A model generated the notes under the pieces. It made no database searches, was not told the DNA's origin, and saw nothing but the letters and a program-made list of their open reading frames with translations. A DNA stretch of 64,000 nucleotides. Origin: an uncultured Dehalococcoidales bacterium (lineage in GTDB: Bacteria > Chloroflexota > Dehalococcoidia > Lucifugimonadales > Lucifugimonadaceae). A program made the translations under genes and the position numbers. This document shows, piece after piece, positions 2,037 through 61,754 of this stretch. Each line of letters opens with the position of its first letter. Position 1 is the first letter of the stretch. Location: positions 53,593-117,592 of the forward strand of contig CAYYRD010000008.1 of NCBI GenBank assembly GCA_964474025.1, read 5' to 3'.

Positions 2037-3158
2037 CTATCCGTCCTGTTCGGCTGCCGGAACCGCAGTCCTGCGCCTGATTCCTACCCATAACGCCAGG
2101 GCAACAGGCGCCAGCAGCAGGCCCATCTGGCCAGCAGATGCCGGGCCTCCCGGATTGGCGCTGCACAGCCCGCCGCCCTCGTCTTCATCAACCTCCGCCA
2201 CCGGCGTTGAGGTTGCCTCCGGTTCTGGCGTCGATGTCGGTGTCGGCTCCGGAGTTGAAGTTGGAGTTGGAGTTGGAACCGTGGTCGCCGTCGGCGGGAT
2301 CGGGGTGGGCGTTGCAGTGGGCGTCGGCGAAGGCGTGCTCGTAGGCACCGGAGTCGGCGTCCGCGTCGGCTCGGGGGTCGCCGTCGGCAACGGTGTCGCG
2401 GTCGGAAGCACCGGAGTCGGCACCGGAGTCGCCGTGGGGACCCGCGTCGGTACCGGTGTTGGCGTCGGCAGGGCGTCGAAGGTCAGAATGATGTTCGACA
2501 CGATTTTGCCCGGCTGATACGGCTCGGTCTGATTGGCCTTGTTGCCGGCCAGGAAGAACTCGATAGGCTCGCCGGCGAGAGCGATGTCCTGCGGATCCAC
2601 GATGATAGAGAATTCGCCGCTGGAAATATTCCCCCCTGTGACTTCGTATTCCGAACCGATTCGGATCGTGAAGGGAGTCGAATCTGGCGGGCTCACACCA
2701 CCCGCCTGTATGAATCCCGAATAACGGGCGGGAAGACTCGGTATCGGAGTCGGCTCTAAAGGCGTGGCGTTAAACACCACGTCGAATACGCGGGATGCCG
2801 GACACGGCTCTGGACCACAGTTCGGCAGGATGTAGGTATCCCGATCCGTGGCGATTACCTGGTTCTCAAGAATGAACTCCACATCGTTGCCGCCCGCGCC
2901 CTCGACGGGTCCGACCTGGAGGGCGTTGTAACGGCCGCCCCTGGTCTTCACAGGCAGCGACACGTAAGAAGTGCCGACTATCCGTGCCTGGATGTCAAGG
3001 CCGTCTGGCGCGGGCTGGCCTTCCACCGTGACGAAACCCTGATAGAGCGTGAACCCAAGACTTGGAAACCCTTGAGCGCGAGTCGTCGTGAAACCGGCCG
3101 TGATCACGCCGACAAGCATGACAGCCAGCAATAAGGTCGAGACAACTCTGCGCTTCAT
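2037..3158 (-). CDS. Secreted surface protein: signal peptide, two beta-rich domains, about 100-aa Pro/Thr linker, C-terminal Cys + TM + RRR sorting-type anchor
   Basis: N-terminus [30 protein letters not shown]. Long PTPTPVPT... low-complexity run. C-terminus [42 protein letters not shown] Shine-Dalgarno before ATG 3158. Confidence 0.75.
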
Positions 3159-3277: not shown

Positions 3278-6169
3278 TTACGGGACGATCACGTCCGCTG
3301 CCGTGGCGTAGGCCCAGTAGGCCTCACCGGTGATAGCGTTCGGACCGAGTTTCGGTGGCGTGCTAGACCGGGTCGACAACTGTTCCCAGACCTTGTCGGT
3401 CGCGTCCCAGGAGTACACCTGGGTGACCTTGGACGGGAAGTAGTCCAACCCGGACTTGACCGTGTTACCCGGCTGACGCAGGGCGCCACCGGTACCACCG
3501 GTAACGTCCGTCACGCCGACGAGGTTCCAGCCCTTGACCAGATCGATCGACGGTGGGATCGACGACGCGGTGAGGGACGGGATGGCGACCACGAGGGCCG
3601 ATACCGCGTCCGCTACCACGATGTAGCCGACTCCGCTTTCGATGCTGGTCAAGTTACCGGCCAGGTCGTTGCTCTCGGAGTCACGTACGGCGCTGGAGAA
3701 GGTTCCAGCTGTCGCATCGTATGACGATACCGAGACGATTCCATCCGGCGAGAACACCGAGTTGATGTCCGTGTCAGACGGGGTCAGCGGGAACGACACC
3801 AGGGTCGTGCCCGGCAATACGGTCAACTTGAACTCTGCCCGCTTGGCGATTACGAACGTCTTGGACAGGCCAGTGGCCGTGTTGCCCGCGAGGTCGGTCG
3901 CCGTGGCCGTGGCCTTGTATGTGCCGAGGGCCAGTGCAGAGGTCGCCCGGATGAACGTCTTGCTGTCGCTGGTGCCAAGCTCGGAAGTGACGTTATCCAG
4001 CGTAGTAGCGGACGAGAGTCCGAACTCCGCCTTGGAAACAGTCACTTTCTCGCCGAAGTCCCAGCGGACGAACGGACTGTTGTCCGAGATCGTACCGCTT
4101 GGCGACAACGACAGTGTCGGCGGCGTCTTGTCCAGGGCAAAGGTCACCGCCCCCGAAGCGAGGGAGTTTGCCTTGCCCTTGACCGTCTGGCCAATCGTGG
4201 CAGAGCCAACGGCGGTGTCACCACCAACCTTACTGGATACCGCGGTCAGCGTAGCGGCGTCGTTCGCCGTCACGACTACTGATTTCTTTTTGCCGTCTGC
4301 GGTGGATCCGTCATAGGAACCGCCGGCGAAGGTTGCAATCCACGTGTTGCTGCCCTGGTTGACGGCAGTAACTGAAGGCTCGCTTGCGCCAGCCGTTGCG
4401 GAGTTTGCGGCCTCGTTGTAGATCGCGACCGTCGGGTCAGACGAGAGGTTCTCGTCCGACGTGATCGTGATCGTCATCCCGCTCTTGGTCAGGGTCGCAG
4501 GCGCCGTGGCGGACGAGCCGCCGGACAGTGCAACCGTGATTGTCGGAGCGATAGCGTCCTTCGACGTGGTGTCGGCGATCGCGACAGCCGTGTTACCGGC
4601 TGCGTCCGTGATCGAACCAACGACCTTGATCTTCGGTGCGTCCTTCGTCGCCAGGGCGGTGCCCAGGGTCAGGAAGACACGGTCTTTGAACCCGGTACCA
4701 CCGACTTCGGCGGTGGTCGGAACCTGAGTGACGCTGCCGACAACCACTTCAAAGTCGGTATTGGCAACCGACGTAGCGTCGAGGTCGTCATTGAAGTTGA
4801 CTTCGATCGCGTTCTTGACGTTGAACTTGCGAACGACTGGACTCTTCGTCTTGTCGAGCGCAAAGCCTGTGTAGGCGGCTGATACCGACGGGATGATCTG
4901 GTCGATCTTGACGGTATTCGGCTGCCCAAGGCCGGCAGTGTTGGTCTTCGTGGTGCTCGAGTCGCTCCAACCGATGTTCCCTGCCAGGTCGGATGCCCGA
5001 ACCTGCCAGTCGACGATGTGGTCGGGTTTCTGCGATGACGCAAAGCCGGTCGGGACATCGCTCAACGTCTTTGAGAACGTCGTGCTGGTAGCCCCGTCTG
5101 CCGTACCAACCGGCAAGACTAGAGCCGTCCCCGTCGTCCCTTTCGTCACCACAACACGGCTCGTGTTGGTCTGGTCGTTGCCCTGGTCCACGAACAACTG
5201 GATTTCAGTGATGTCCAATGCGGAAGTGCTGTCAGACACCGATCCAGTGAACGTCGGGTTACGGAGCTGAGTCGAACTGCCGTTCGCCGGCGCCGTGAGT
5301 GTCACCAGCGGAGCGACGGTTTCTGCCGTCGCGGTGGAAGTCTTGTCAGCTCCGGCCGCCTGGCTGCCATTTTCATTCAGGTCGTCGTAAGCGACGGTAA
5401 CGACACCACCACTCTGGATGCCCTTGGCGTCGGCAGAGATAGTCGTGCTCTGGATGTCTTCAAGGTCTATGTACCCCTTGAACACACCTGAGCTCGCGGT
5501 AGTTTCGGTCAACGTGCGAGTCTTGACTGTCGTGGACTGGGTGGTCGTGACTTTGACGTTCACCGTGTCCTGGATACTCGTCGCCCAGTTAAGGATCACA
5601 GCTCCTGCGCCGCCCGAGGGCGCCGTGGCGCCGGTCTGAACCAGGGTGATCGTGCCGGGGGAGGTCTTCGAACCCGCTACTGCGTTAGACAGAGCGACTC
5701 GAGTCTTCTCGGTCCCGGTAATGGTGATGTCTACACCATCCGTGATACCAAGCGTGCCGGTGTCCACGATCGGACTATCGGCGGTGGACAACACAACGGT
5801 CGCCGTTTTACCGGGCCCCGTGAAATCACCGACGCTCGTGACCGTGGTCGACTTCGCCGTCGTCGTGTTCTGGTCCGCGTCTTCGACAAAGATCGTCACC
5901 CTGTCGGCGTTCGTCTGGATTGTCGACTGCGCGGCCGCCGAAGAGGCGTTTACTTCCACAAAAGTGGAGTAAACGGTCCCCGTTGTAGAAGTGTAGCCAG
6001 TGAGAGCAGACGGGTCGTTGGTTATCTTCGACCACTCATTCGCCACATAGACCTTGGCAGTCGTGTTGGCTGCACTGGCCTCTGAACCTGACGATGTCAG
6101 GCCCACTAGCCCCACCACAAGCAGCACGAATGCTGCCAGAGCGGTTATCAATTTCACCGAAAGTTTCAC
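3278..6169 (-). CDS. Large S-layer-like / cell-surface protein (963 aa, Thr/Ser/Ala/Val-rich, Ig-like repeat character)
   Basis: GTG 6169-6167 is preceded by GGGGGA at 8-nt spacing. The signal peptide is VKLSVKLITALAAFVLLVVGLVGLTSSGSEASA. The upstream part of track ORF 3278..6325 (MGRITGRRRR...) is unlikely to be coding. I recognised no enzymatic motifs. Confidence 0.8.
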   Translation of the reverse strand: MKLSVKLITALAAFVLLVVGLVGLTSSGSEASAANTTAKVYVANEWSKITNDPSALTGYTSTTGTVYSTFVEVNASSAAAQSTIQTNADRVTIFVEDADQNTTTAKSTTVTSVGDFTGPGKTATVVLSTADSPIVDTGTLGITDGVDITITGTEKTRVALSNAVAGSKTSPGTITLVQTGATAPSGGAGAVILNWATSIQDTVNVKVTTTQSTTVKTRTLTETTASSGVFKGYIDLEDIQSTTISADAKGIQSGGVVTVAYDDLNENGSQAAGADKTSTATAETVAPLVTLTAPANGSSTQLRNPTFTGSVSDSTSALDITEIQLFVDQGNDQTNTSRVVVTKGTTGTALVLPVGTADGATSTTFSKTLSDVPTGFASSQKPDHIVDWQVRASDLAGNIGWSDSSTTKTNTAGLGQPNTVKIDQIIPSVSAAYTGFALDKTKSPVVRKFNVKNAIEVNFNDDLDATSVANTDFEVVVGSVTQVPTTAEVGGTGFKDRVFLTLGTALATKDAPKIKVVGSITDAAGNTAVAIADTTSKDAIAPTITVALSGGSSATAPATLTKSGMTITITSDENLSSDPTVAIYNEAANSATAGASEPSVTAVNQGSNTWIATFAGGSYDGSTADGKKKSVVVTANDAATLTAVSSKVGGDTAVGSATIGQTVKGKANSLASGAVTFALDKTPPTLSLSPSGTISDNSPFVRWDFGEKVTVSKAEFGLSSATTLDNVTSELGTSDSKTFIRATSALALGTYKATATATDLAGNTATGLSKTFVIAKRAEFKLTVLPGTTLVSFPLTPSDTDINSVFSPDGIVSVSSYDATAGTFSSAVRDSESNDLAGNLTSIESGVGYIVVADAVSALVVAIPSLTASSIPPSIDLVKGWNLVGVTDVTGGTGGALRQPGNTVKSGLDYFPSKVTQVYSWDATDKVWEQLSTRSSTPPKLGPNAITGEAYWAYATAADVIVP

Positions 6170-6529
6170 GTTGCTTGTCCCCCTATGACTTTCGCGTTTC
6201 TGACCACCGCCGGCAGGGTTACCTGCCTGTGGGTCTAGGCCTCGCCGTGATCCCAAGATGAACACTTTCCTCCACAGGATCGCTCCGCCTTTTGATCGAC
6301 GGCGCCGGCCCGTGATACGTCCCAATACTTCACATGGAAAACGCGCACATATACGCGCGGACTCCCGGGACTGGAGCCGAGCAGATGGATTCTTACACTC
6401 CGGTTAGGAGGCTGTCAAGAAGCCGGAAGCGCGCCAAACTGGGCGTTTCAGACAGGTTTCCAAACTCTTATCCGGTAGCGGATGAAGCCCCTCTGCGGGG
6501 CGCCCGACTCGGTTGTCGTGGCGGTCGCG

Positions 6530-13933: not shown

Positions 13934-14737
13934 TCACTCGCGTTTGCTTCCCGGACGCCGATCGAAGTCCGTGGTGAACCGAACGCCGAGATCGGACTCG
14001 GTACGTCCCACGTCGAACTTTTCACGCGCCCCGGGCGCTCCGATTAGATGGTATCGACGTAACCCGCCTTTCGGTTCGGAAGGCATGGATAACGCGCCGA
14101 GGCAGGCGCGGCCCACATCGTAGCGATCTATCCACGCGTCCTCGTGCATCGACCGCTCCCAACCGTCGTCGCCCCACTTCGATCTCCCCTGCTTCACATC
14201 CACGATGTCGCCCAACCGCAATCCGATCACGTCCATGCCATGAATAGCGGCGAACCAGGCGCCGACCTCTTCCTGCAGGTGCTTCGTGAGGTCGTAAATG
14301 TCGTCAGGCTGTCCGTAGTAAGGCGTATCGCCTGTTACTGATTCACCCGCCGGGCGTGTGACGTGCGTCTCTGCCGACGCGATGAATATCACCCGCCCGA
14401 TACCGGCCTCCCGCGCGGCCTCGAACACGTTGAATGTGCCGCGAACGTTCACGTCGAAAGGTTCTGCCTCACCGGCGCGGTAGTGGCCGTGTGCCAGCGT
14501 GCTCCGGACGGCGGCGTGAATCACCGCCTCCTGCCCCTCCATGGCGGCTCTCATCCCGATGTAATCCGTGATCGAGCCCGGAGTGGTTTCGACTTCCGCG
14601 TCCTCGGGCAAGACCGGGGATTCGACCGGAATATCGGGAGCCGCCAGATCAAACGCACGCACTGCGTGCTCCGTGGCCACGACCTCGGTCACGGCCTTGC
14701 CAAGCCAGCCGCGTGCGCCGGTGATCAGAACCTTCAC
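13934..14737 (-). CDS. NAD-dependent epimerase/dehydratase family protein
   Basis: MKVLITGARGWLGKAV Rossmann motif. GTG start lies 6 nt after the upstream stop. Confidence 0.8.
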   Translation of the reverse strand: MKVLITGARGWLGKAVTEVVATEHAVRAFDLAAPDIPVESPVLPEDAEVETTPGSITDYIGMRAAMEGQEAVIHAAVRSTLAHGHYRAGEAEPFDVNVRGTFNVFEAAREAGIGRVIFIASAETHVTRPAGESVTGDTPYYGQPDDIYDLTKHLQEEVGAWFAAIHGMDVIGLRLGDIVDVKQGRSKWGDDGWERSMHEDAWIDRYDVGRACLGALSMPSEPKGGLRRYHLIGAPGAREKFDVGRTESDLGVRFTTDFDRRPGSKRE

Positions 14738-14743
14738 TGCGGA

Positions 14744-16429
14744 TCAGGCACGGTCGTGTATCTCCACCGTTTGTGACGGGCCGTTAGTCATCATGACCAT
14801 GCTTTTCCCGGCGGGCCCGCCGAACGACACGATCTCGATCCGCTCCGGACGGTTGAACGCCGGGAAACTGGTGCGGGCCGCTTCTTCCGGGGATAGCTCC
14901 AGTAACCAGCGCCAGGGCGGCAGCAGCCAGTCCGGGTTGGCCTTGAACCCGTTGTGGAGTCCGGCCGCCGTCACGCGGGTCTTCGCCCACAGGTAGTCGC
15001 GCACCATGTCCTTTGACCATCCGGCATCTGTGCACACCCGGGCGTGGTCCGGGCAGAGGATCACCAGCGCCCCGCCCCCACCCTCGCGGTCGTACGGATC
15101 CGGGTCAGACCATCGGATGCCGAAATATCCGCCACCGCCTCGAATCCCGCCGGCCACGGTGTTCAGCACGCGCTCCGGGGTGAAGTTGTTAAGGTCCGCG
15201 GCGTCGATCAAGTTGCGCACCCCGGCCACCGTCACGGTGGAGGCACTCTTCGGGAATCCGCGCTCTTCAGCGAGCGACTCCCACGGGCCGCCTTCCACCG
15301 GCTCGGCGGCGCACAGCGAGAACTTGGAAGGCGCGCCGATGGTGTCCATGTCCATCTCGGTCGGGTAGTTGTGGCCGACATTCATCAGCACCAGCCGAAA
15401 CGCCCGCCCGAGGACGATGTTGACCCGCGACTGCTTGCCGGGACCGAGTGATGCCTTGCCGGTGTTCAATCCCAGTTCGTCCACGATAGGCCCGTTGAGC
15501 AGCATGATCGGCGCGTCCGGGCTTGTCGACATGAGCCACTGCCGCGCGCGAGAACCCATCTTGATGACCGCCTCACACGCGGCGATCAAGGCCGGGAGGT
15601 GTGACGGTTCGCATCCCGCCATCGCGGCGGATACAGCGATCTTCTGGACCGTCGCTATGCCCATTCCCGGGGGCAATATTCCGACGATGTGTTCCGGATC
15701 CAGTGACGTGCCGGACAGTATTTCGTTAACGCGTTCCGGTGTCGGCGGGAGCAGCGGGAGTCCATCTCCCCATCCGTTTTCCAGGAAGGCCTCGTTGAAC
15801 TGCGCCAGCGCGTCCATCTGATCTGTGCCGTCAAAATCAAGCGGCCCACCCGGCAACCGCTCCGGCAGGGGTCCGGAGTCTGCGAGGCCGGGCAGCGCTT
15901 CGGGATCGGTCAATCCCCGGACCACCACATCGATGCGCTCCGCAATGCTCGCCCGGGACCGTTCCGGCGGCACGCTCGTAATCACGTCCGGCACGACGAC
16001 GAAGGGAGCGCGAGGCATGCCGAAAACGCGTGCGCTCGCCACGGTGTCCTTCTCAAAGCCTGCGGACGCCACTGATACCGTGGGGATGCCCTTGCGCTCC
16101 AGGTAAATCATGTCGTGGACAAGCCACGACGTGCACTGCCCTCAGTCGCTTGAGGAGCCGACCACAACGTCACACTCCTCGGCCGCCCGGTCCAGCATGT
16201 CCGATGGTGTCGGGATGCTTCCCTGGTAGGTGGCCAGCTCGACGCCCGAGAAACGGTCGCTCAACATCGTACCCACCTGATCAAGGATGGCGTCTCCACC
16301 CCGTTTCCGGTTCCAGACGAGTCCCACCCGCAAACCGTCCAAGGTTGTGGGACGCGCTGCGATTTCCGTCTCGATTCCGGCCCCCTGCAGGGCGGCGACC
16401 GGGTTCATGACTGTGAGTTGGTGAGCCAT
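14744..16429 (-). CDS. GrdB/UGSC-like selenoprotein candidate (561 aa if the in-frame UGA at 16144-16142 is read as Sec)
   Basis: Track ORFs 16142..16429 and 14744..16111 are in the same frame (16144-16111=33) and separated only by TGA. The context is ...CDVVVGSSSD-U-GQCTSWLVHDMIYLERKGIPTVSV. GAGAGG Shine-Dalgarno before ATG 16429, but none before ATG 16111. Confidence 0.6.
16112..16130 (-). promoter_or_regulatory. SECIS-like stem-loop 11 nt downstream of the in-frame UGA
   Basis: mRNA GUCGUGG-CUUGU-CCACGAC: perfect 7-bp stem, 5-nt loop containing GU. Confidence 0.45.
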
Positions 16430-16622
16430 TTGGAGCCTCTCTGGCTGGTTCTGAGCGTATTACGTGCCGACTGTCTCACGAAGCTAGTCCCGCGCCCGCG
16501 GGCCGTCAACCGGAGCGGCTGTTTCCCGAACGTCACGCCGATCTCACTCTCGACCTGAATCCAGGAGATCACGGCGCGGTAACATGCCGCCGTCATGACA
16601 AGCGAACGCCTCCGGAAGCGAA

Positions 16623-36682: not shown

Positions 36683-38305
36683 CTAAACGAGTTGGAAGGG
36701 CGGCGCCATTATTGGCAGGCTGACATGGATCAAAAACGGCTCGTCCAGCGCCAGGGCTTCCTGCAACGCGGCCTTCAAGCCAACAGGCGTGTCCACGCCC
36801 TTCGAGCGGATGCTGAACGCCGCAGCAAGCGTGTCCCAGTCCGGGTTGAAGAACTCGGTTCCTATCTCGCGGTCCCCGTATCGATGCTCCTGATCCCACC
36901 GGGAGGCCCCGAAGGCGCCGTTGTCGAACACCACCACCACGAGGTTGATGCCGTGCTGTTTCGCCGTCGCCAATTCCTGCGGGCTGTACATGAAGCCCCC
37001 GTCGCCACAGAGGGCGACCACCGGCCGATCACCCGCCGCCATTTTGGCTCCGAGGGCCGTCGGGAAGCTGAAGCCGAGGTTGCCGAAGTAGCCGGAGGTG
37101 ATGAACTCGCCGCCCTCCCGCACATCGTAGGCGATGTGACTCCAGTAGCCGATATTGGTCATGCCGGCGATCAACACAGCGTCGTCCCCGGTAGCTTCCC
37201 TGACGGCGTTGACCCATGCCAACTGAACGGGCGCAGCGTCATCGAGGAAAGCCTGCAACTTCTCGCGGTACACCGACGCGCGTTCACCCGCCGAACCATC
37301 GCCCTTATCCACACCACATCCCTGGAGAGCATCGCAGACCGCCGAGATGCCTGCTTTGGCGTCCGCCTGAATGGCGATCGTGGTGCCGTGGTCCTTATCG
37401 AGCTCCCGTTGATCGACATCGATCTTGATGATCGTCTGCCCGTCCTTCGCCTTGAACCCGGGCACCATGAACCGCGTCCCAGCGACCAGGATCACATCGG
37501 AATCGGCGAGCAGCTCTCCGCTGACCCCGATCTGGGCGTAATGCACACCCACGTACTGCGGATGGCCTGCTGGAACGCTGCCTTTTGCCTGCTGCGTTCC
37601 GACTATCGGAGCATCCAGCATCTCGGCCATCGCGGCGACCTCCGGTCCCGCCTCCGCACGCAGAACCCCACCCCCGATAACGATCGCTGGCTTCTCAGCA
37701 CCGGCAAGCGCTTCGGCGGCGCGGGCGACAAGGTCATCCGCGGGTTGCTGCGCCGCGTAAAGCTCGGCCTCTATGATCTCGACCTCACCCGTGGCGGCGA
37801 GGATGTCCGGCGGGATCTCCAGTTCCACGGGCCGCGGCCGGCCGGTAGTCATCTGCTTGAACGCCTCGTGGATCGCGCCCGGGATCTCCGAAACGGACGA
37901 CACCCGTGTGTTCCATTTGACGATGGGCTTGAAAACATCAAGCTGTTCCTCGACCTCGTGCAGTTGACCTTCGCCTTTGCCGAGCGAACCGCTGGCTATC
38001 TGGCCGGAGATGAGCAACACGGGCGACGAAGCGGCGTAGGCCGTCCCGACCGCCGCGGTGGCGTTCAAAGCGCCGGGACCGGGGACGACGAGGGCCACGC
38101 CGGGTTTACGTGCGACGCGGGCGTATCCGTCCGCCATGTAGGCGGTTGTCTGCTCATGCCTGGTGCTGATTAGCCGGATTGACTGGCTGTCATGGAGTGC
38201 GTCAAACGCCGCCATGATCTGGACGCCGGGGAGCGCAAAAACCGTGTCCACGCCCTCCGCTTCAAGCGATCTGCGAAGTGCTTCTGCGCCGGTCATCTCG
38301 GGCAT
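36683..38305 (-). CDS. Thiamine-pyrophosphate-dependent enzyme (acetolactate synthase large-subunit family)
   Basis: MPEMTGAEALRRSLEAEGVDTVFALPGVQIMAAFDAL...STRHEQTTAYMADGYARV and a C-terminal GDGGFMYSPQELATA TPP motif. Start is ATG 38305 (codon 57 of the track ORF). Confidence 0.85.
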   Translation of the reverse strand: MPEMTGAEALRRSLEAEGVDTVFALPGVQIMAAFDALHDSQSIRLISTRHEQTTAYMADGYARVARKPGVALVVPGPGALNATAAVGTAYAASSPVLLISGQIASGSLGKGEGQLHEVEEQLDVFKPIVKWNTRVSSVSEIPGAIHEAFKQMTTGRPRPVELEIPPDILAATGEVEIIEAELYAAQQPADDLVARAAEALAGAEKPAIVIGGGVLRAEAGPEVAAMAEMLDAPIVGTQQAKGSVPAGHPQYVGVHYAQIGVSGELLADSDVILVAGTRFMVPGFKAKDGQTIIKIDVDQRELDKDHGTTIAIQADAKAGISAVCDALQGCGVDKGDGSAGERASVYREKLQAFLDDAAPVQLAWVNAVREATGDDAVLIAGMTNIGYWSHIAYDVREGGEFITSGYFGNLGFSFPTALGAKMAAGDRPVVALCGDGGFMYSPQELATAKQHGINLVVVVFDNGAFGASRWDQEHRYGDREIGTEFFNPDWDTLAAAFSIRSKGVDTPVGLKAALQEALALDEPFLIHVSLPIMAPPFQLV

Positions 38306-38457
38306 GTTGGGGTCTTTCTTATCTGGTGGAGGTGGTAGCCGACGGCATTGTAGGCCGGGAAAGACTGCATCCGACGCGCCCACTGCATTCTGAAGGCCAC
38401 GACCCACACATTGCGGCGATCCGTACAATCCACTGGCCGAGGGCCACCGAGAGGAAA

Positions 38458-39495
38458 TTGTTGTTGACTTCACATCCGTCCGGCGAAGGCCTGCCCGCCG
38501 GCAAATTGCCGGGTGAGCTGCTGGCGCGCTTGCTATCCAGGATCCAGCGTGACGATCCGCGGGTGATCGTCGGGCCGGGTGTCGGCGAGGATGCGGCGTT
38601 CGTCGACTTCGGCGAAACCCTGCTCGTCGCGAAAAGCGACCCCGTGACCTTCGCGACCGATCTGATCGGCTGGTACACGGTGCAGGTAAACGCCAACGAT
38701 GTTGCGTGTTGCGGTGCGGTGCCGAAGTGGTTCCTGGGAACGGCTTTGCTGCCCGTAGGCACCACGCCGGATCAGGTGGAACGCATATTCGACCAGATCT
38801 CGGATGCTTGCGACGCGCTCGGCATCACGATGATCGGCGGCCACACCGAGATGACGCTCGACCTGCCGCGCCCGATCGTTGCCGGGACGATGCTGGGTGA
38901 GGTGACAAAAGGCGAAGAGGTGATGACGGCGGGCGCACGCCCTGGTGACCGCGTGATCCTGACCAAGGGGATCGCCATCGAGGGAACGTCACTTCTCGCA
39001 CGTGAGATGCGTCCGCAACTCGAGCTTGCCGGGGTTCCGGCGGGCGTGATCGACCGGGCAGCAAACTACCTGTACGAACCCGGGATCAGCGTAGTCCCGG
39101 AGGCGCGCATCGCACATGCCGCCGGGGGTGTCACGTCGATGCACGACCCGACGGAGGGCGGGCTGGCCACGGCGCTGGCCGAGCTCGCGACGGCATCAAG
39201 CACCGGGGTCGCGATCGACGGAGACGCCGTCCCGATCCTGCCGGAAGCGGCGGAGCTTTGTGCCGCGCTCGGGGTCGACCCGTGGGGACTCATCTCGTCC
39301 GGCGCCTTGCTCATTACGGCCCGGTCGGAAAGCGCCGCAAAGATAGTCGATGCCGTAACCGCGGCAGGGATCCGGGCGACCGATATCGGCGAGATCAGGC
39401 CGGTCGGCGAAGGGCTACTGCTACGCCGGGAGGGCGTTGAAACGCCCCTCCCTGCGTTCGAGCGGGATGAACTTGCGCGCGTGCTGGGAGAATAG
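38458..39495 (+). CDS. AIR-synthase-related (PurM/HypE/ThiL superfamily) protein
   Basis: GKLPGELLARLL...VGPGVGEDAAFVDF...DLIGWYTVQVNANDVACCGA...GGHTEM. Three consecutive TTG codons at 38458-38466 follow GAGAGGA. Confidence 0.7.
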   Translation: MLLTSHPSGEGLPAGKLPGELLARLLSRIQRDDPRVIVGPGVGEDAAFVDFGETLLVAKSDPVTFATDLIGWYTVQVNANDVACCGAVPKWFLGTALLPVGTTPDQVERIFDQISDACDALGITMIGGHTEMTLDLPRPIVAGTMLGEVTKGEEVMTAGARPGDRVILTKGIAIEGTSLLAREMRPQLELAGVPAGVIDRAANYLYEPGISVVPEARIAHAAGGVTSMHDPTEGGLATALAELATASSTGVAIDGDAVPILPEAAELCAALGVDPWGLISSGALLITARSESAAKIVDAVTAAGIRATDIGEIRPVGEGLLLRREGVETPLPAFERDELARVLGE

Positions 39496-60650: not shown

Positions 60651-61754
60651 TCAGGCCGGGTGGTAAAGCTCCGTCTCCGGGTAAAAGTCTGACCACGCGA
60701 ACCAGAACGACACCACGGAGTGAACGCGCTCAAGCTGCTCCCCTTCCAGCTCCCCGTCGATTCCACGCCCCGTGAACGGCAGGAACAGCGATCCCGTCTT
60801 CTTGTCGCGAAGCAGCGCAGTACCGTCATCAACGATCACCTGCTCAAACTCCAGGCGGCGTCCCTCCAGATCACGGTTGTAAACAAGCGCCGTATCAGTA
60901 TCAGGCTTGAAAAACACAACCACGTCCTCGCCGGCAACCCGATCATTCACGACCGGATTGTCGTCGAGAGCCGACAGCGGAAACGCCTTCGGACCGCCAT
61001 CGAAGCCGACTCCAAGGATCTTGTCCTTACGGGCCAATCGCTCATCGTAGACGGACTCGCCGATCACGCCGGCGTCGTTGTTGGCGTAGTAGCCATCGTA
61101 CGGATCGGACGATCCGCTTCGTCCCTTGTCCAGGATCGCGGTGTCGGGGTGTTCACGCACCCACTGGCCGAAAGTGGTCTGCACGAGTGGAATGATCTCG
61201 AGCCTTCGGCCGGCCAGTTCTCCTTTGACACCCTGTGAAAGGAACTGGCTCCAAAGAGTACCGCTCTGATGGTCGTACATCACGAGCGCGTTCTTGATCA
61301 ATTTTCCGGACACACCAAACGTGTGATCTTCGCCGTTTATCGTCCGGGCATACCCGATGCCGGTAAAGCACAGCGGTCACCAGGTGACGGCGATCGGAAC
61401 TCCGCCGACGGTGTCGTTGACGACCTCCCGCCCGCTCAGAAAGGGAATCGAGTAGGCACGGCTGTCGCCGTGGATCGATACGCCCAGGACGGGTTCATCC
61501 GCTGCGTATCGGGTTGCCGCCGCCGGCGTGATGAAGCGAGGGTTGAGAATCGCCTGGATGCCGTCACGCGGTAACAACGTAACCAGCTCCAGAGTGCGGT
61601 CGAAAGATGCCGGGTCGTCGGGATCAGCGGGCACGATGATTGTCTCCTTGCTCAACAGCGCGACTCGTAACGCCTGTGGTCCGTCCATGGCAAAGAAAAG
61701 GACGATTCCCGCCACGGCCAGGCCCATGAACAGATATGACTTCTGGATTCTCAT
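60651..61754 (-). CDS. Membrane-anchored DUF3179-family selenoprotein candidate (367 aa if UGA 61379-61377 is read as Sec)
   Basis: Track ORFs 61377..61754 and 60651..61313 share a frame (61379-61313=66) and are separated only by TGA. The junction reads GGVPIAVTW-U-PLCFTGIGYARTINGEDHTFGVSGKLIKNALVMYDHQSGTLWSQ. The N-terminal half alone ends exactly where DUF3179 proteins have their CPLC motif. Confidence 0.65.
61344..61363 (-). promoter_or_regulatory. SECIS-like stem-loop 13 nt downstream of the in-frame UGA
   Basis: mRNA CCGGCAU-CGGGU-AUGCC(C)GG: 7 bp with one bulged C, 5-nt G-rich loop ending in GU. Confidence 0.4.

What the first reader, a model, noticed from the sequence alone, without database searches (positions are those of the whole stretch)
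14744..16429. In-frame UGA fuses two ORFs into a GrdB/UGSC-like UxxC (U-G-Q-C) selenoprotein candidate with a hairpin 11 nt downstream
Seen in the sequence:
- ORF 16142..16429 has a good GAGAGG Shine-Dalgarno and reads ...LRVGLVWNRKRGGDAILDQVG...AAEECDVVVGSSSD. It ends at TGA 16144-16142.
- The same frame continues GGG CAG TGC ACG TCG TGG ... (G Q C T S W L V H D) straight into ORF 14744..16111 (MIYLERKGIPTVSVASAGF...).
- There is no other stop, and no Shine-Dalgarno before ATG 16111.
- A perfect 7-bp stem with a 5-nt loop (GUCGUGG-CUUGU-CCACGAC, 16130..16112) begins 11 nt after the UGA. This is the spacing known for the minimal E. coli fdhF SECIS helix.

From memory, the context U-G-x-C-T-x-x...E-R-x-G-I-P-x-V resembles the Sec region of glycine/betaine/proline reductase B-type proteins (UxxCxxC followed by ...AGIPVV). 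It also resembles the 'UGSC' selenoprotein family described from marine metagenomes.

Inference: this is a 561-aa selenoprotein whose C-terminal 450 aa I cannot assign. Together with the DUF3179 case, this makes two UxxC-type UGA genes in 64 kb, which argues that the organism decodes Sec.
Basis: partly seen in the sequence, partly recalled or inferred. Interest (0 to 1): 0.8.

Follow-up and report, generated by a model that had tools for sequence, protein, structure and literature searches.

The report
UGSC-family selenoprotein fused to unknown domain
The in-frame TGA very probably encodes selenocysteine in a 561-residue protein of the known but functionally uncharacterised UGSC selenoprotein family, here fused to the large unknown domain that almost always accompanies UGSC genes.

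Summary
On the minus strand, 16429..14744 is one reading frame with a single TGA (16144-16142) in the context D-U-G-Q-C. A perfect 7-bp, 5-nt-loop hairpin starts exactly 11 nt downstream.

Residues 7-174, spanning the TGA, match Pfam UGSC (128 bits; cutoff 25). Full-length homologs carry Cys at that column. In 78 of 84 junctions from 86 related loci in many phyla the codon is TGA. The hairpin is kept by synonymous-codon restriction (Ser = TCG in 66/68 against 24% background) and by a few compensatory changes. The six Cys forms fold it much more weakly. UGA is a normal stop in this genome.

The remaining ~370 residues form a confidently modelled domain with no Pfam model and no convincing PDB relative. 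UGSC genes picked only by their TGA+hairpin signature have this domain fused or nearby in 65 of 67 evaluable loci.

GrdB membership fails. A remote, in-register similarity to the GrdB/PrdB Sec region does exist (hhalign 48%; decoys below 1%).

Verdict: a correct call of a known selenoprotein kind, of unknown function. Sec machinery was not found in the window.

The parts
14744..16429 (-). Complete selenoprotein coding sequence: 561 codons plus its own TGA stop at 14746-14744. Public annotations of close relatives split it into a 94-95-aa and a ~449-456-aa gene.
   Evidence: Single frame with one internal TGA. Homologs of 559-577 aa cover 97-99% of it. Relatives are called as 95 + 455 aa, both pieces flagged PF24696.
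16436..16441 (-). Shine-Dalgarno-like GAGAGG, 6 nt upstream of the ATG at 16429-16427.
   Evidence: Read directly from the sequence. No comparable motif precedes ATG 16111.
16142..16144 (-). UGA codon 96, the proposed selenocysteine codon, first residue of the U-G-Q-C motif.
   Evidence: Aligned with Cys in 10 of 11 full-length homologs. TGA at this column in 78 of 84 junctions found in related loci.
16133..16135 (-). TGC codon 99, the partner (resolving) Cys of the UxxC motif.
   Evidence: Invariant column C99 in the UGSC-domain alignment. TGC/TGT in 67 of 68 distinct Sec-type junctions.
16112..16130 (-). SECIS-type hairpin: stem 16130-16124 / 16118-16112 (GUCGUGG / CCACGAC), loop 16123-16119 (CUUGU). 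It starts 11 nt after UGA and lies inside codons T100-D106.
   Evidence: 98.5% of cells paired in 48 distinct sequences against 18-54% when slid. There are 3 compensatory cells at 2 pairs (G-C to A-U). Ser codon TCG in 66/68 against 0.24 background; T/A codon ending in G in 61/68 against 0.36. Mean local MFE is -11.6 kcal/mol in Sec forms and -5.5 in Cys forms.
15908..16411 (-). UGSC domain (residues 7-174): a beta-alpha-repeat domain with Sec at the start of a helix.
   Evidence: PF24696 E = 5.5e-37, 128 bits, profile 2-171/172. NF041046 103.5 bits, below the cutoff of 125. In the AF2 model of homolog P0045 (pLDDT 90.8), the aligned Cys lies between strand 97-101 and helix 106-121. The best PDB matches are weak flavodoxin-like folds.
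14747..15862 (-). C-terminal partner domain (residues 190-561) of unknown function, with conserved motifs W-x-D-G-x-P-x-x-P-P-T, A-M-A-G-C, M-S-T, N-G-P, L-G-P-G and P-x-H-A.
   Evidence: No Pfam or NCBIfam family. AF2 model pLDDT 92.2, pTM 0.92. Best PDB fold match has E = 1e-3, probability 0.63, TM 0.24-0.28. No PDB sequence match. 8,510 representative clusters at E <= 1e-3.
13934..14737 (-). Downstream gene 6 nt after the stop: an NAD-dependent epimerase/SDR-family protein (267 aa), probably co-transcribed. It is conserved only in close relatives.
   Evidence: PF01370 E = 7.8e-18. Same arrangement in L001/L002. Not a general neighbour of the family.

Best explanation
SHOWN BY COMPARISON

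The region 16429..14744 on the minus strand is one gene for a 561-residue member of the UGSC selenoprotein family. UGA codon 96 occupies a column that is Cys in the Cys-type homologs. It is followed, 11 nt downstream, by a 7-bp/5-nt-loop hairpin that is held at the RNA level across phyla.

INFERRED FROM THE ESTABLISHED BACTERIAL MECHANISM

SelB carrying Sec-tRNA(Sec) binds this hairpin on the translating mRNA and inserts selenocysteine at the UGA, so the ribosome continues into the '455-aa ORF'.

THE PROTEIN

- An N-terminal UGSC domain with a beta-alpha-repeat pattern. Its best, weak PDB matches are flavodoxin-like folds. The U-G-Q-C motif sits at the start of a helix.
- A short low-confidence linker.
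- A ~370-residue C-terminal domain of unknown fold class. This domain is the regular partner of UGSC, either fused or encoded by a neighbouring gene that often overlaps it.

WORKING MECHANISM (INFERENCE, ABOUT 40% CONFIDENCE)

The Sec/Cys pair cycles between selenol/thiol and selenenylsulfide. It acts as the redox nucleophile on a small organic substrate held by the C-terminal domain. This is formally like the Sec-bearing GrdB/PrdB subunits, which act on a substrate held by a partner subunit. Recurrent neighbours (TctC and family-5 solute receptors, CoA-transferase III, acyl-CoA dehydrogenase, MmgE/PrpD, hydrolases) point to catabolism of imported organic acids.
For: - One frame, one TGA.
- Pfam UGSC, 128 bits, spans the TGA.
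- Full-length homologs have ADCGxCxSW with Cys at the Sec column.
- 78 Sec-type against 6 Cys-type junctions in loci from Chloroflexota, Proteobacteria, Tectimicrobiota, Methylomirabilota, Binatia, Nitrospiraceae, Acidobacteriota and Actinomycetota.
- Hairpin paired in 98.5% of cells, with G-C / G-U / A-U variants.
- Extreme synonymous restriction of the stem codons.
- Weaker hairpins in Cys forms.
- UGA terminates 12 of 41 Pfam-supported genes in the window, including this one.
- A second known-family Sec gene, DUF3179, lies in the window.
- Two confident AF2 models. The full-length pTM of 0.91 implies a defined domain interface.
- Stand-alone C-domain genes overlap a Sec-type stand-alone UGSC gene by 4 nt.
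- Of 67 evaluable loci picked only by the TGA+hairpin signature, 35 are fused, 27 have the domain downstream and 3 have it upstream or nearby.
- Remote in-register similarity to the PrdB/GrdB Sec region: TIGR01917 E about 1e-4 for two UGSC domains; hhalign score 35.5 and probability 48% against decoy maxima of 18.5 and 0.8%.
- Neighbour families verified.
Against: - No selA, selB, selD or tRNA-Sec in the 64 kb. ARAGORN found no tRNA. The only AIRS-fold protein scores 75.8 against a selD cutoff of 125 and lacks the SelD N-terminal motif.
- No Rfam SECIS family matches.
- Alone, the hairpin is not significant.
- True covariation is sparse: 4 of 7 pairs never vary. Part of the stem is forced by conserved residues (S-W, H-D), so Cys forms keep a weaker version.
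- The junction counts are not phylogenetically independent, so the binomial P-values overstate significance.
- The NCBIfam UGSC equivalog cutoff is not reached.
- Nothing bears directly on chemistry. The C-domain has no informative structural relative. Its most conserved Cys (C273) is Ala in a whole Sec-type subclade. No neighbour is universal.
- No expression or proteomic data.
Confidence: 0.9

Rival explanations
1. The TGA is a true stop. Two separate products are made, a 95-aa and a 455-aa protein, or the gene is a pseudogene or carries a sequencing error.
For: Gene callers annotate relatives exactly this way. There is an ATG 31 nt after the TGA. No Sec machinery is seen in the window.
Against: One Pfam domain is cut in the middle by the TGA. 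There is no Shine-Dalgarno before ATG 16111, which lies at the 3' edge of the hairpin. Cys forms are single polypeptides. The same TGA recurs in 78 junctions from many phyla with a conserved hairpin, which is incompatible with error or decay.
Confidence: 0.03
2. The UGA is read through, but not as selenocysteine. Possibilities are near-cognate Trp or Cys insertion, or a reassigned genetic code.
For: The Sec machinery is unverified for this genome. Cys works at this position in natural homologs.
Against: UGA is an ordinary stop for 12 of 41 genes in the window, including this gene's own end. The conserved downstream hairpin at SECIS spacing has no role in simple leaky read-through. UGSC and DUF3179 are both recognised Sec families (PMC2398784, PMC13188914). 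The Sec/Cys alternation at one column is the classical Sec signature.
Confidence: 0.04
3. It is a genuine member of the glycine/sarcosine/betaine/D-proline reductase B family (GRDB, PF07355). It would work as the Sec subunit of a pyruvoyl-dependent reductive C-N cleavage system.
For: The layout matches: strand, U-x-x-C, helix, E..G-I-P-T-V with Gly at +18, P-R/x, (F/H)-P-L-G. There are weak TIGR01917 hits for two UGSC domains. hhalign gives 48% probability, E = 1.9e-4, well above decoys.
Against: None of 24 UGSC domains gives a GRDB hit in Pfam at E <= 10. The window's own domain does not hit TIGR01917, and the best relatives reach 19-21 bits against a cutoff of 602. The similarity covers only ~69 columns. 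No GrdE/PrdA-like pyruvoyl proprotein, GrdA, or thioredoxin-system neighbour was seen. The partner domain has no Gly_reductase match.
Confidence: 0.1

Closest known systems
UGSC-containing selenoprotein family (Zhang & Gladyshev; Pfam PF24696, NCBIfam NF041046)
   Same: The domain matches at 128 bits. The U-G-x-C motif is at the same column. Sec forms far outnumber Cys forms: 78 to 6 here, and 255 to 21 in the GOS survey (PMC2398784). The SECIS hairpin lies directly downstream. Function is unknown in the literature.
   Different: The motif is U-G-Q-C rather than U-G-S-C. The score is below NCBIfam's equivalog cutoff (108 against 125), whereas stand-alone and some fused relatives pass at 128-148 bits. 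Here the domain is fused to a ~370-aa domain. A 'UGSC/Unknown_1' fusion was reported in 2008, but that figure is held only as an image, so identity of Unknown_1 with this domain could not be verified. The literature suggests a thioredoxin-like fold; the model's best (weak) PDB matches are flavodoxin-like folds.
GrdB / PrdB selenoprotein subunits of glycine and D-proline reductases (PF07355, TIGR01917)
   Same: UxxC with Sec first, placed after a beta-strand at a helix start. The G-I-P-T-V strand follows 18 residues later. A profile-profile alignment is in register. Both work with a separate or fused partner polypeptide.
   Different: No HMM-level membership. UGSC has only ~95 residues before Sec. 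The partner is not a pyruvoyl proprotein of the GrdE/PrdA type by sequence. The hosts are largely aerobic or environmental Chloroflexota and Proteobacteria, in organic-acid catabolic contexts rather than Stickland fermentation operons.
E. coli fdhF-type bacterial SECIS (minimal upper stem-loop 11 nt after UGA; established knowledge, not tested here)
   Same: A hairpin inside the coding sequence. It has exactly 11 nt spacing from UGA and a small apical loop containing G and U.
   Different: There is no bulged U in the stem, and the loop sequence varies between lineages (12 loop variants). No Rfam SECIS model matches. Binding by the cognate SelB is untested.

Membership tests
UGSC family (Pfam PF24696) | Match to the family HMM above the gathering score, covering the whole domain | tested here: met
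   128 bits against a cutoff of 25, residues 7-174, profile 2-171/172. All 24 sampled relatives match.
UGSC family (seleno)protein, NCBIfam NF041046 (equivalog) | Score at or above the curated cutoff of 125 bits | tested here: not met
   103.5 bits for the full protein and 108.3 for the domain alone. Stand-alone and some fused relatives pass at 128-148 bits. The window's subgroup is more divergent than the equivalog definition.
UGSC family | U/C-G-x-C motif at the conserved column, followed by T-S-W | tested here: met
   D-U-G-Q-C-T-S-W in the window. C96 (written for Sec), G97, C99, S101 and W102 are invariant in alignment A6.
Bacterial selenoprotein gene | In-frame UGA aligned with Cys in homologs | tested here: met
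   10 of 11 full-length homologs have Cys at the column. There are 6 Cys-type and 78 TGA-type genomic junctions.
Bacterial selenoprotein gene | Conserved SECIS stem-loop just downstream of the UGA | tested here: met
   The hairpin starts 11 nt after UGA. It is 98.5% paired, with compensatory G-C to A-U changes. Stem codons are synonymously restricted. It is weaker in Cys forms.
Bacterial selenoprotein gene | Sec machinery (selA, selB, selC, selD) in the same genome | not testable with these tools
   None in the 64-kb window: no tRNA, and the AIRS-fold ORF 38278-39495 is below the selD cutoff. The rest of the genome is not available. A second Sec-family gene, DUF3179, in the window is indirect support.
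Bacterial selenoprotein gene | Selenium actually incorporated at the UGA | not testable with these tools
   Needs 75Se labelling or mass spectrometry.
GrdB/PrdB family (Pfam PF07355 GRDB; TIGR01917) | Match to the family HMM above its cutoff | tested here: not met
   No GRDB hit for the window protein or for 24 UGSC domains at E <= 10. TIGR01917 gives 19-21 bits against a cutoff of 602, and only for two relatives.
GrdB/PrdB family | Homology of the Sec-bearing region (UxxC in register) | tested here: inconclusive
   hhalign MSA against MSA: probability 47.9%, E = 1.9e-4, 69 columns, Sec and Cys columns aligned. The reversed decoy scores 11.8 and the maximum of 30 shuffled decoys is 18.5, against 35.5 for the real alignment. 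An earlier comparison with a single sequence gave only 5%.
GrdB/PrdB family | Association with a pyruvoyl proprotein partner (GrdE/PrdA) and GrdA or thioredoxin-system genes | tested here: not met
   The partner domain has no Pfam match. The neighbours are SDR, RraA-like, enolase-superfamily, TctC, SBP_bac_5, CoA-transferase III, acyl-CoA dehydrogenase and MmgE/PrpD.

The most novel reading that the evidence does not exclude
UGSC is one of the most abundant aquatic selenoprotein families and has had no known function for about 20 years. On this reading it is not a free-standing thiol oxidoreductase. It is the Sec-bearing half of an obligate two-part enzyme, remotely related to GrdB/PrdB. Its other half is a ~370-residue domain that has no Pfam model, no convincing solved structural relative, and thousands of members. 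The enzyme would carry out a Sec-dependent reductive step in the catabolism of imported organic acids in aerobic Chloroflexota and Proteobacteria.
Probability: 0.35. Interest if true: 0.65.

Novelty: new member of a known kind. Interest (0 to 1): 0.4.

Why it matters
For the window itself, this is mainly an annotation correction. Two 'hypothetical' genes are really one selenoprotein, and the same mis-split affects the public records of most relatives examined here.

The comparative work also gives a practical handle on the UGSC family, whose function has been open since the mid-2000s.

- Its partner domain is now defined, and the pairing looks nearly obligate.
- A remote link to GrdB/PrdB suggests a kind of chemistry to test.
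- Natural Cys forms occur in genome records of named Nonomuraea strains (N. corallina MCN248, N. ferruginea DSM 43553), which could be studied without Sec expression systems.

The case also shows a SECIS element shaping protein sequence. The stem His codon CAC/CAT is present in 66 of 68 Sec forms, whereas 5 of the 6 Cys forms have Arg there.

Tried and rejected
- Rfam, gathering threshold on the whole window and permissive on 15900-16500: no SECIS or other family.
- Single-sequence folding significance of the hairpin: not significant. The hairpin alone would not justify the claim.
I modelled a natural Cys homolog (P0045) and the window's own C-domain instead.
- PDB by sequence profile: nothing for the whole family or for the UGSC domain.
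- PDB by fold: only weak flavodoxin-like hits for UGSC. For the C-domain, weak hits to class I fumarate hydratase, Toblerone-fold amide hydrolases and CyuA. I do not treat these as homology.
- Verifying that the 2008 'Unknown_1' domain equals this C-domain: the figure is an image and the UGSC section of the sequence dataset is not in the stored text.
- SelD candidate in the window (ORF 38278-39495, AIRS/AIRS_C): rejected. It is below all curated cutoffs and lacks the SelD N-terminal motif.
- C273 as the obligate redox partner of Sec: rejected. It is Ala in a whole Sec-type Dehalococcoidia subclade.
- A universal conserved neighbour gene: none found.
- Pfam GRDB membership: rejected.
- The first hhalign, against a single PrdB-type read, gave only 5% and would have dismissed the link. 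MSA-versus-MSA comparison with decoys revised this to 'remote, inconclusive'.
- Literature search for SAR202/Chloroflexi selenoproteins: no paper held.
Full report
1. OBSERVATION

On the minus strand, 16429..14744 translates as one frame of 561 codons with a single internal stop. This is TGA at 16144-16142 (codon 96), in the context ...VVVGSSSD*GQCTSWLVHDMIYLERKGIPTV.... The mechanical ORF list shows the two pieces, 95 aa (16142..16429) and 455 aa (14744..16111).

GAGAGG lies 6 nt before ATG 16429. Nothing resembling a ribosome-binding site precedes ATG 16111.

After the TGA come exactly 11 nt (GGGCAGUGCAC), then GUCGUGG-CUUGU-CCACGAC at 16130..16112. By itself this hairpin is unremarkable for a 62% G+C sequence: z = -1.18, and 24 of 200 shuffles fold as well.

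2. WHAT THE PROTEIN IS

With Cys written for the stop, residues 7-174 match Pfam PF24696 'UGSC family' (E = 5.5e-37, 128 bits, cutoff 25, profile 2-171 of 172), so the domain runs straight across the TGA. NCBIfam NF041046 'UGSC family (seleno)protein' also matches, but below its equivalog cutoff (103.5 against 125). Residues ~190-561 match nothing in Pfam or NCBIfam.

A search of 5.8 billion proteins returned two kinds of relative:
- many ~455-aa proteins that begin just after the Sec column, which is the signature of gene callers stopping at TGA;
- a set of 559-577-aa proteins covering 97-99% of the read-through.

In the alignment, 10 of 11 full-length proteins read A-D-C-G-x-C-x-S-W with Cys at the window's TGA column. 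One has lost both redox residues. On contigs carrying close and distant relatives, the upstream 94-95-aa ORF ends in TGA and the frame continues for ~555-561 codons.

3. IS THE UGA DECODED?

A scan of one genome per species found at least 577 places encoding relatives. The best 80 loci come from Dehalococcoidia and other Chloroflexota, Beta-, Gamma-, Alpha- and Deltaproteobacteria, Entotheonella/Tectimicrobiota, Methylomirabilota, Rokuibacteriota, Binatia, Nitrospiraceae, Acidobacteriota and Actinomycetota. Among the junctions in those loci and the six fetched earlier, 78 have TGA and 6 have TGC. The TGC cases are three Nonomuraea, an Actinomycetes MAG, an Alphaproteobacteria MAG and a Sphingomonas MAG.

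Evidence that the hairpin is under RNA-level selection:
- Stem: GUCGUGG/CCACGAC is almost invariant at the nucleotide level, although the proteins share only 30-45% identity and flanking codons drift. All seven pairs are 92-100% paired in 74 distinct Sec-type sequences.
- Formal count on 48 distinct sequences: 98.5% of cells are paired, against 18-54% when the partner is slid. The variants are G-C, G-U and A-U, with 3 compensatory cells at 2 pairs. For example, TCA opposite CAT occurs in L037 and in L069/L071.
- Caveat: 4 of the 7 pairs never vary, so classical covariation is thin.
- Synonymous restriction is the stronger argument. The stem Ser codon is TCG in 66 of 68 junctions, against 24% TCG for Ser elsewhere in the same genes. 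The preceding Thr/Ala/Ser codon ends in G in 61 of 68, against 36%. The nominal binomial P-values (1e-38 and 5e-20) are inflated by shared ancestry, but the effect spans many phyla.
- Cys forms use ACC, TCC and CGC. Their local hairpins average -5.5 kcal/mol, against -11.6 for Sec forms.
- The stem His is CAC/CAT in 66 of 68 Sec forms, while 5 of 6 Cys forms have Arg. The SECIS therefore appears to constrain the protein sequence.

UGA is an ordinary stop in this genome. It ends 12 of 41 Pfam-supported genes, including this gene itself at 14746-14744.

A second gene of a recognised Sec family lies in the window. The DUF3179 read-through (TGA 61379-61377, motif W-U-P-L-C) matches PF11376 over its full length at E = 9e-83.

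Against this, the window holds no tRNA and no selA, selB or selD. The one AIRS-fold protein (38278-39495) scores 75.8 against selD's cutoff of 125 and lacks the SelD N-terminal motif. Rfam finds nothing. The Sec machinery therefore remains untested for this genome.

4. THE C-TERMINAL DOMAIN AND ITS RELATION TO UGSC

An AlphaFold2 model of a natural Cys homolog (P0045, 562 aa) is confident: pLDDT 90.8 and pTM 0.91, with only the linker at residues ~190-198 poorly defined. The N-terminal domain is a beta-alpha repeat. The Cys equivalent to Sec lies between strand 97-101 and helix 106-121.

Against the PDB, this model finds only weak flavodoxin-like matches such as WrbA, flavodoxin-type domains and B12-binding domains (E 1e-4 to 1e-2, TM by target 0.4-0.6).

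The window's own C-domain (residues 190-561) also models confidently (pLDDT 92.2). Its best PDB match is a class I fumarate hydratase subunit at E = 1e-3, probability 0.63 and TM 0.24-0.28, followed by Toblerone-fold amide hydrolases and CyuA. I regard this as no informative relative. PDB sequence profiles also find nothing.

The domain family is large: 8,510 representative clusters at E <= 1e-3 and 2,621 at E <= 1e-30. Among the top 150 representatives there are 52 Sec-truncated forms, 16 full-length forms (mostly C-G-S-C), 22 C-domain-only forms and 6 tandem forms; 54 did not fit these simple rules.

Stand-alone 345-aa C-domain genes lie immediately downstream of a stand-alone, Sec-type UGSC gene (called as 98 + 71 aa), overlapping it by 4 nt. 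TctC and MmgE/PrpD genes follow.

To test the pairing without selecting on the C-domain, I scanned metagenome contigs for the DNA signature TGA + hairpin. Of the 67 loci with enough flanking sequence:
- 35 are fusions;
- 27 have the C-domain downstream (26 as an adjacent gene, and 1 with the hit in another frame);
- 3 have it elsewhere in the locus (adjacent upstream in L208 and L180, about 3.7 kb upstream in L109);
- 2 short contigs show none.

UGSC and this domain are therefore an almost obligate pair, and the window's gene is the fused version.

The nearly invariant C-domain cysteine (C273, A-M-A-G-C) is Ala in a whole Sec-type subclade, so it is not an obligatory partner of Sec.

No neighbour gene is universal. 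The family itself occurs 187 times in 85 loci, so tandem paralogs are common. Recurrent neighbours are TctC and family-5 solute receptors, CoA-transferase III, acyl-CoA dehydrogenase, MmgE/PrpD, SDRs and hydrolases. In the window, the gene is followed 6 nt later by an epimerase/SDR gene. Nearby are RraA-like, SDR and enolase-superfamily genes.

5. THE GrdB QUESTION

Pfam GRDB is not hit by the window protein or by any of 24 diverse UGSC domains at E <= 10. A profile against a single PrdB-type read gave 5%.

However, two UGSC domains hit TIGR01917 (glycine reductase selenoprotein B) at E = 1.3e-4 and 4.1e-4. In the stronger hit, the alignment starts three residues before the Sec position and maps to GrdB's Sec-bearing C-terminal region.

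PrdB-type reads from the GOS dataset show the same layout: strand, U-x-x-C, helix, E..G-I-P-T-V with Gly at +18, then ...P-R..., then F-P-L-G.

An MSA-versus-MSA hhalign gives probability 47.9% and E = 1.9e-4 over 69 columns, with both the Sec and the Cys columns in register. The real score is 35.5. The reversed decoy scores 11.8 and the best of 30 column-shuffled decoys scores 18.5.

My conclusion is that the protein is not a GRDB member, but a remote relationship of the Sec-bearing segment is plausible.

6. MECHANISM

Shown by comparison: one gene, with UGA at a Cys column, a conserved SECIS-type hairpin, and a two-domain architecture with a fixed partner.

Inferred from the established bacterial pathway: SelB carrying Sec-tRNA(Sec) binds the hairpin and inserts Sec.

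Inferred with roughly 40% confidence: the UxxC at the helix start cycles through a selenenylsulfide and acts on a substrate held by the C-domain, by analogy with PrdB/GrdB and their substrate-binding partners. The likely setting is catabolism of imported organic acids.

7. WHAT IS KNOWN AND WHAT IS NEW

The UGSC-containing protein is an established selenoprotein family of unknown function. It is among the most abundant in GOS samples, with 255 Sec and 21 Cys forms, and a 'UGSC/Unknown_1' fusion was noted in 2008 (PMC2398784). It was first mentioned for Hyphomonas neptunium and the Olavius symbionts (PMC1976440). Reviews from 2022 and 2026 still list it as uncharacterised. I could not confirm that Unknown_1 is this C-domain.

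The window's gene is therefore a new member of a known kind. The near-obligate pairing, the size and structural isolation of the partner domain, and the calibrated remote link to GrdB/PrdB are useful but incremental.

8. VERDICT

The selenoprotein/UGSC interpretation is supported. GrdB membership is rejected, with a remote similarity retained. Confidence that this is a single Sec-decoded UGSC-family gene is about 0.9. Interest is 0.4.

Noticed in passing
window 60651-61754 (minus strand), TGA at 61377-61379: A second selenoprotein gene: a DUF3179 protein with motif W-U-P-L-C. The read-through matches PF11376 over 1-292/292 at E = 9e-83. A bulged 7-bp hairpin with loop CGGGU begins ~13 nt after the UGA. 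Its loop ends in GU, like the UGSC loop CUUGU. The fold alone is not significant (z = -0.5).
   Followed up: partly
L006 9680-11350 (GCA_016190665.1, JACPQD010000008.1): One paralog reads TGA GGG ACC TGA, i.e. U-G-T-U. A second TGA replaces the partner Cys codon, only 2 nt before the hairpin. This is either a UxxU variant, a pseudogene or an assembly error.
   Followed up: no
L006 11448-13148 and 17092-18840; also L012, L022, L036, L038, L046: A divergent sister subfamily lies next to the main family. It has a ~103-aa ORF ending ...G-N-G-F, then TGA, then G-T-C-T-P-A-C...A-G-I-P-x-V, with a read-through of ~566-587 aa. It has its own G+C-rich hairpin after the TGA. Its N-part scores 24.9 bits on Pfam UGSC (cutoff 25). 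Its C-part is 33% identical to the window's C-domain (E = 3e-35). In the one locus with precomputed Pfam annotation (L006), neither piece is flagged as UGSC.
   Followed up: partly
Sec-type versus Cys-type junctions in L001-L088: The SECIS overlaps codons T-S-W-x-x-H-D. The stem His (CAC/CAT) is present in 66 of 68 Sec forms, while 5 of 6 Cys forms have Arg. This suggests the RNA element constrains the amino-acid sequence.
   Followed up: partly
window 38278-39495 (+): An AIR-synthase-fold protein (AIRS + AIRS_C) that falls below every NCBIfam cutoff (thiL 107/184, hypE 100/252, selD 76/125). It is not SelD, and its identity is unresolved.
   Followed up: partly
L031, L033, L034 (Nonomuraea corallina MCN248, Nonomuraea sp. 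NPDC048826, N. ferruginea DSM 43553): Natural Cys-type full-length members of the fused family occur in genome records of named (non-MAG) actinomycete strains. These would be convenient for experiments without Sec expression.
   Followed up: no
L006, L012, L063, L076 and others: The family forms tandem paralog arrays. 187 copies were found in 85 loci, and five loci hold 6-7 family ORFs (each Sec-type gene can contribute two). In Chloroflexota they often alternate with SBP_bac_5 genes, and in Betaproteobacteria with TctC genes.
   Followed up: partly
P0127, P0133, P0151, P0176, P0193, P0213: Proteins of ~710-740 aa contain two tandem copies of the C-domain and no UGSC part at the N-terminus.
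   Followed up: no
window 3278-6325 (minus, 1015 aa), 2037-3158 (minus, 373 aa) and 132-932 (+, 266 aa): Large ORFs with no Pfam family at E <= 0.001; 2037-3158 and 132-932 also have no NCBIfam match. Not examined further.
   Followed up: no
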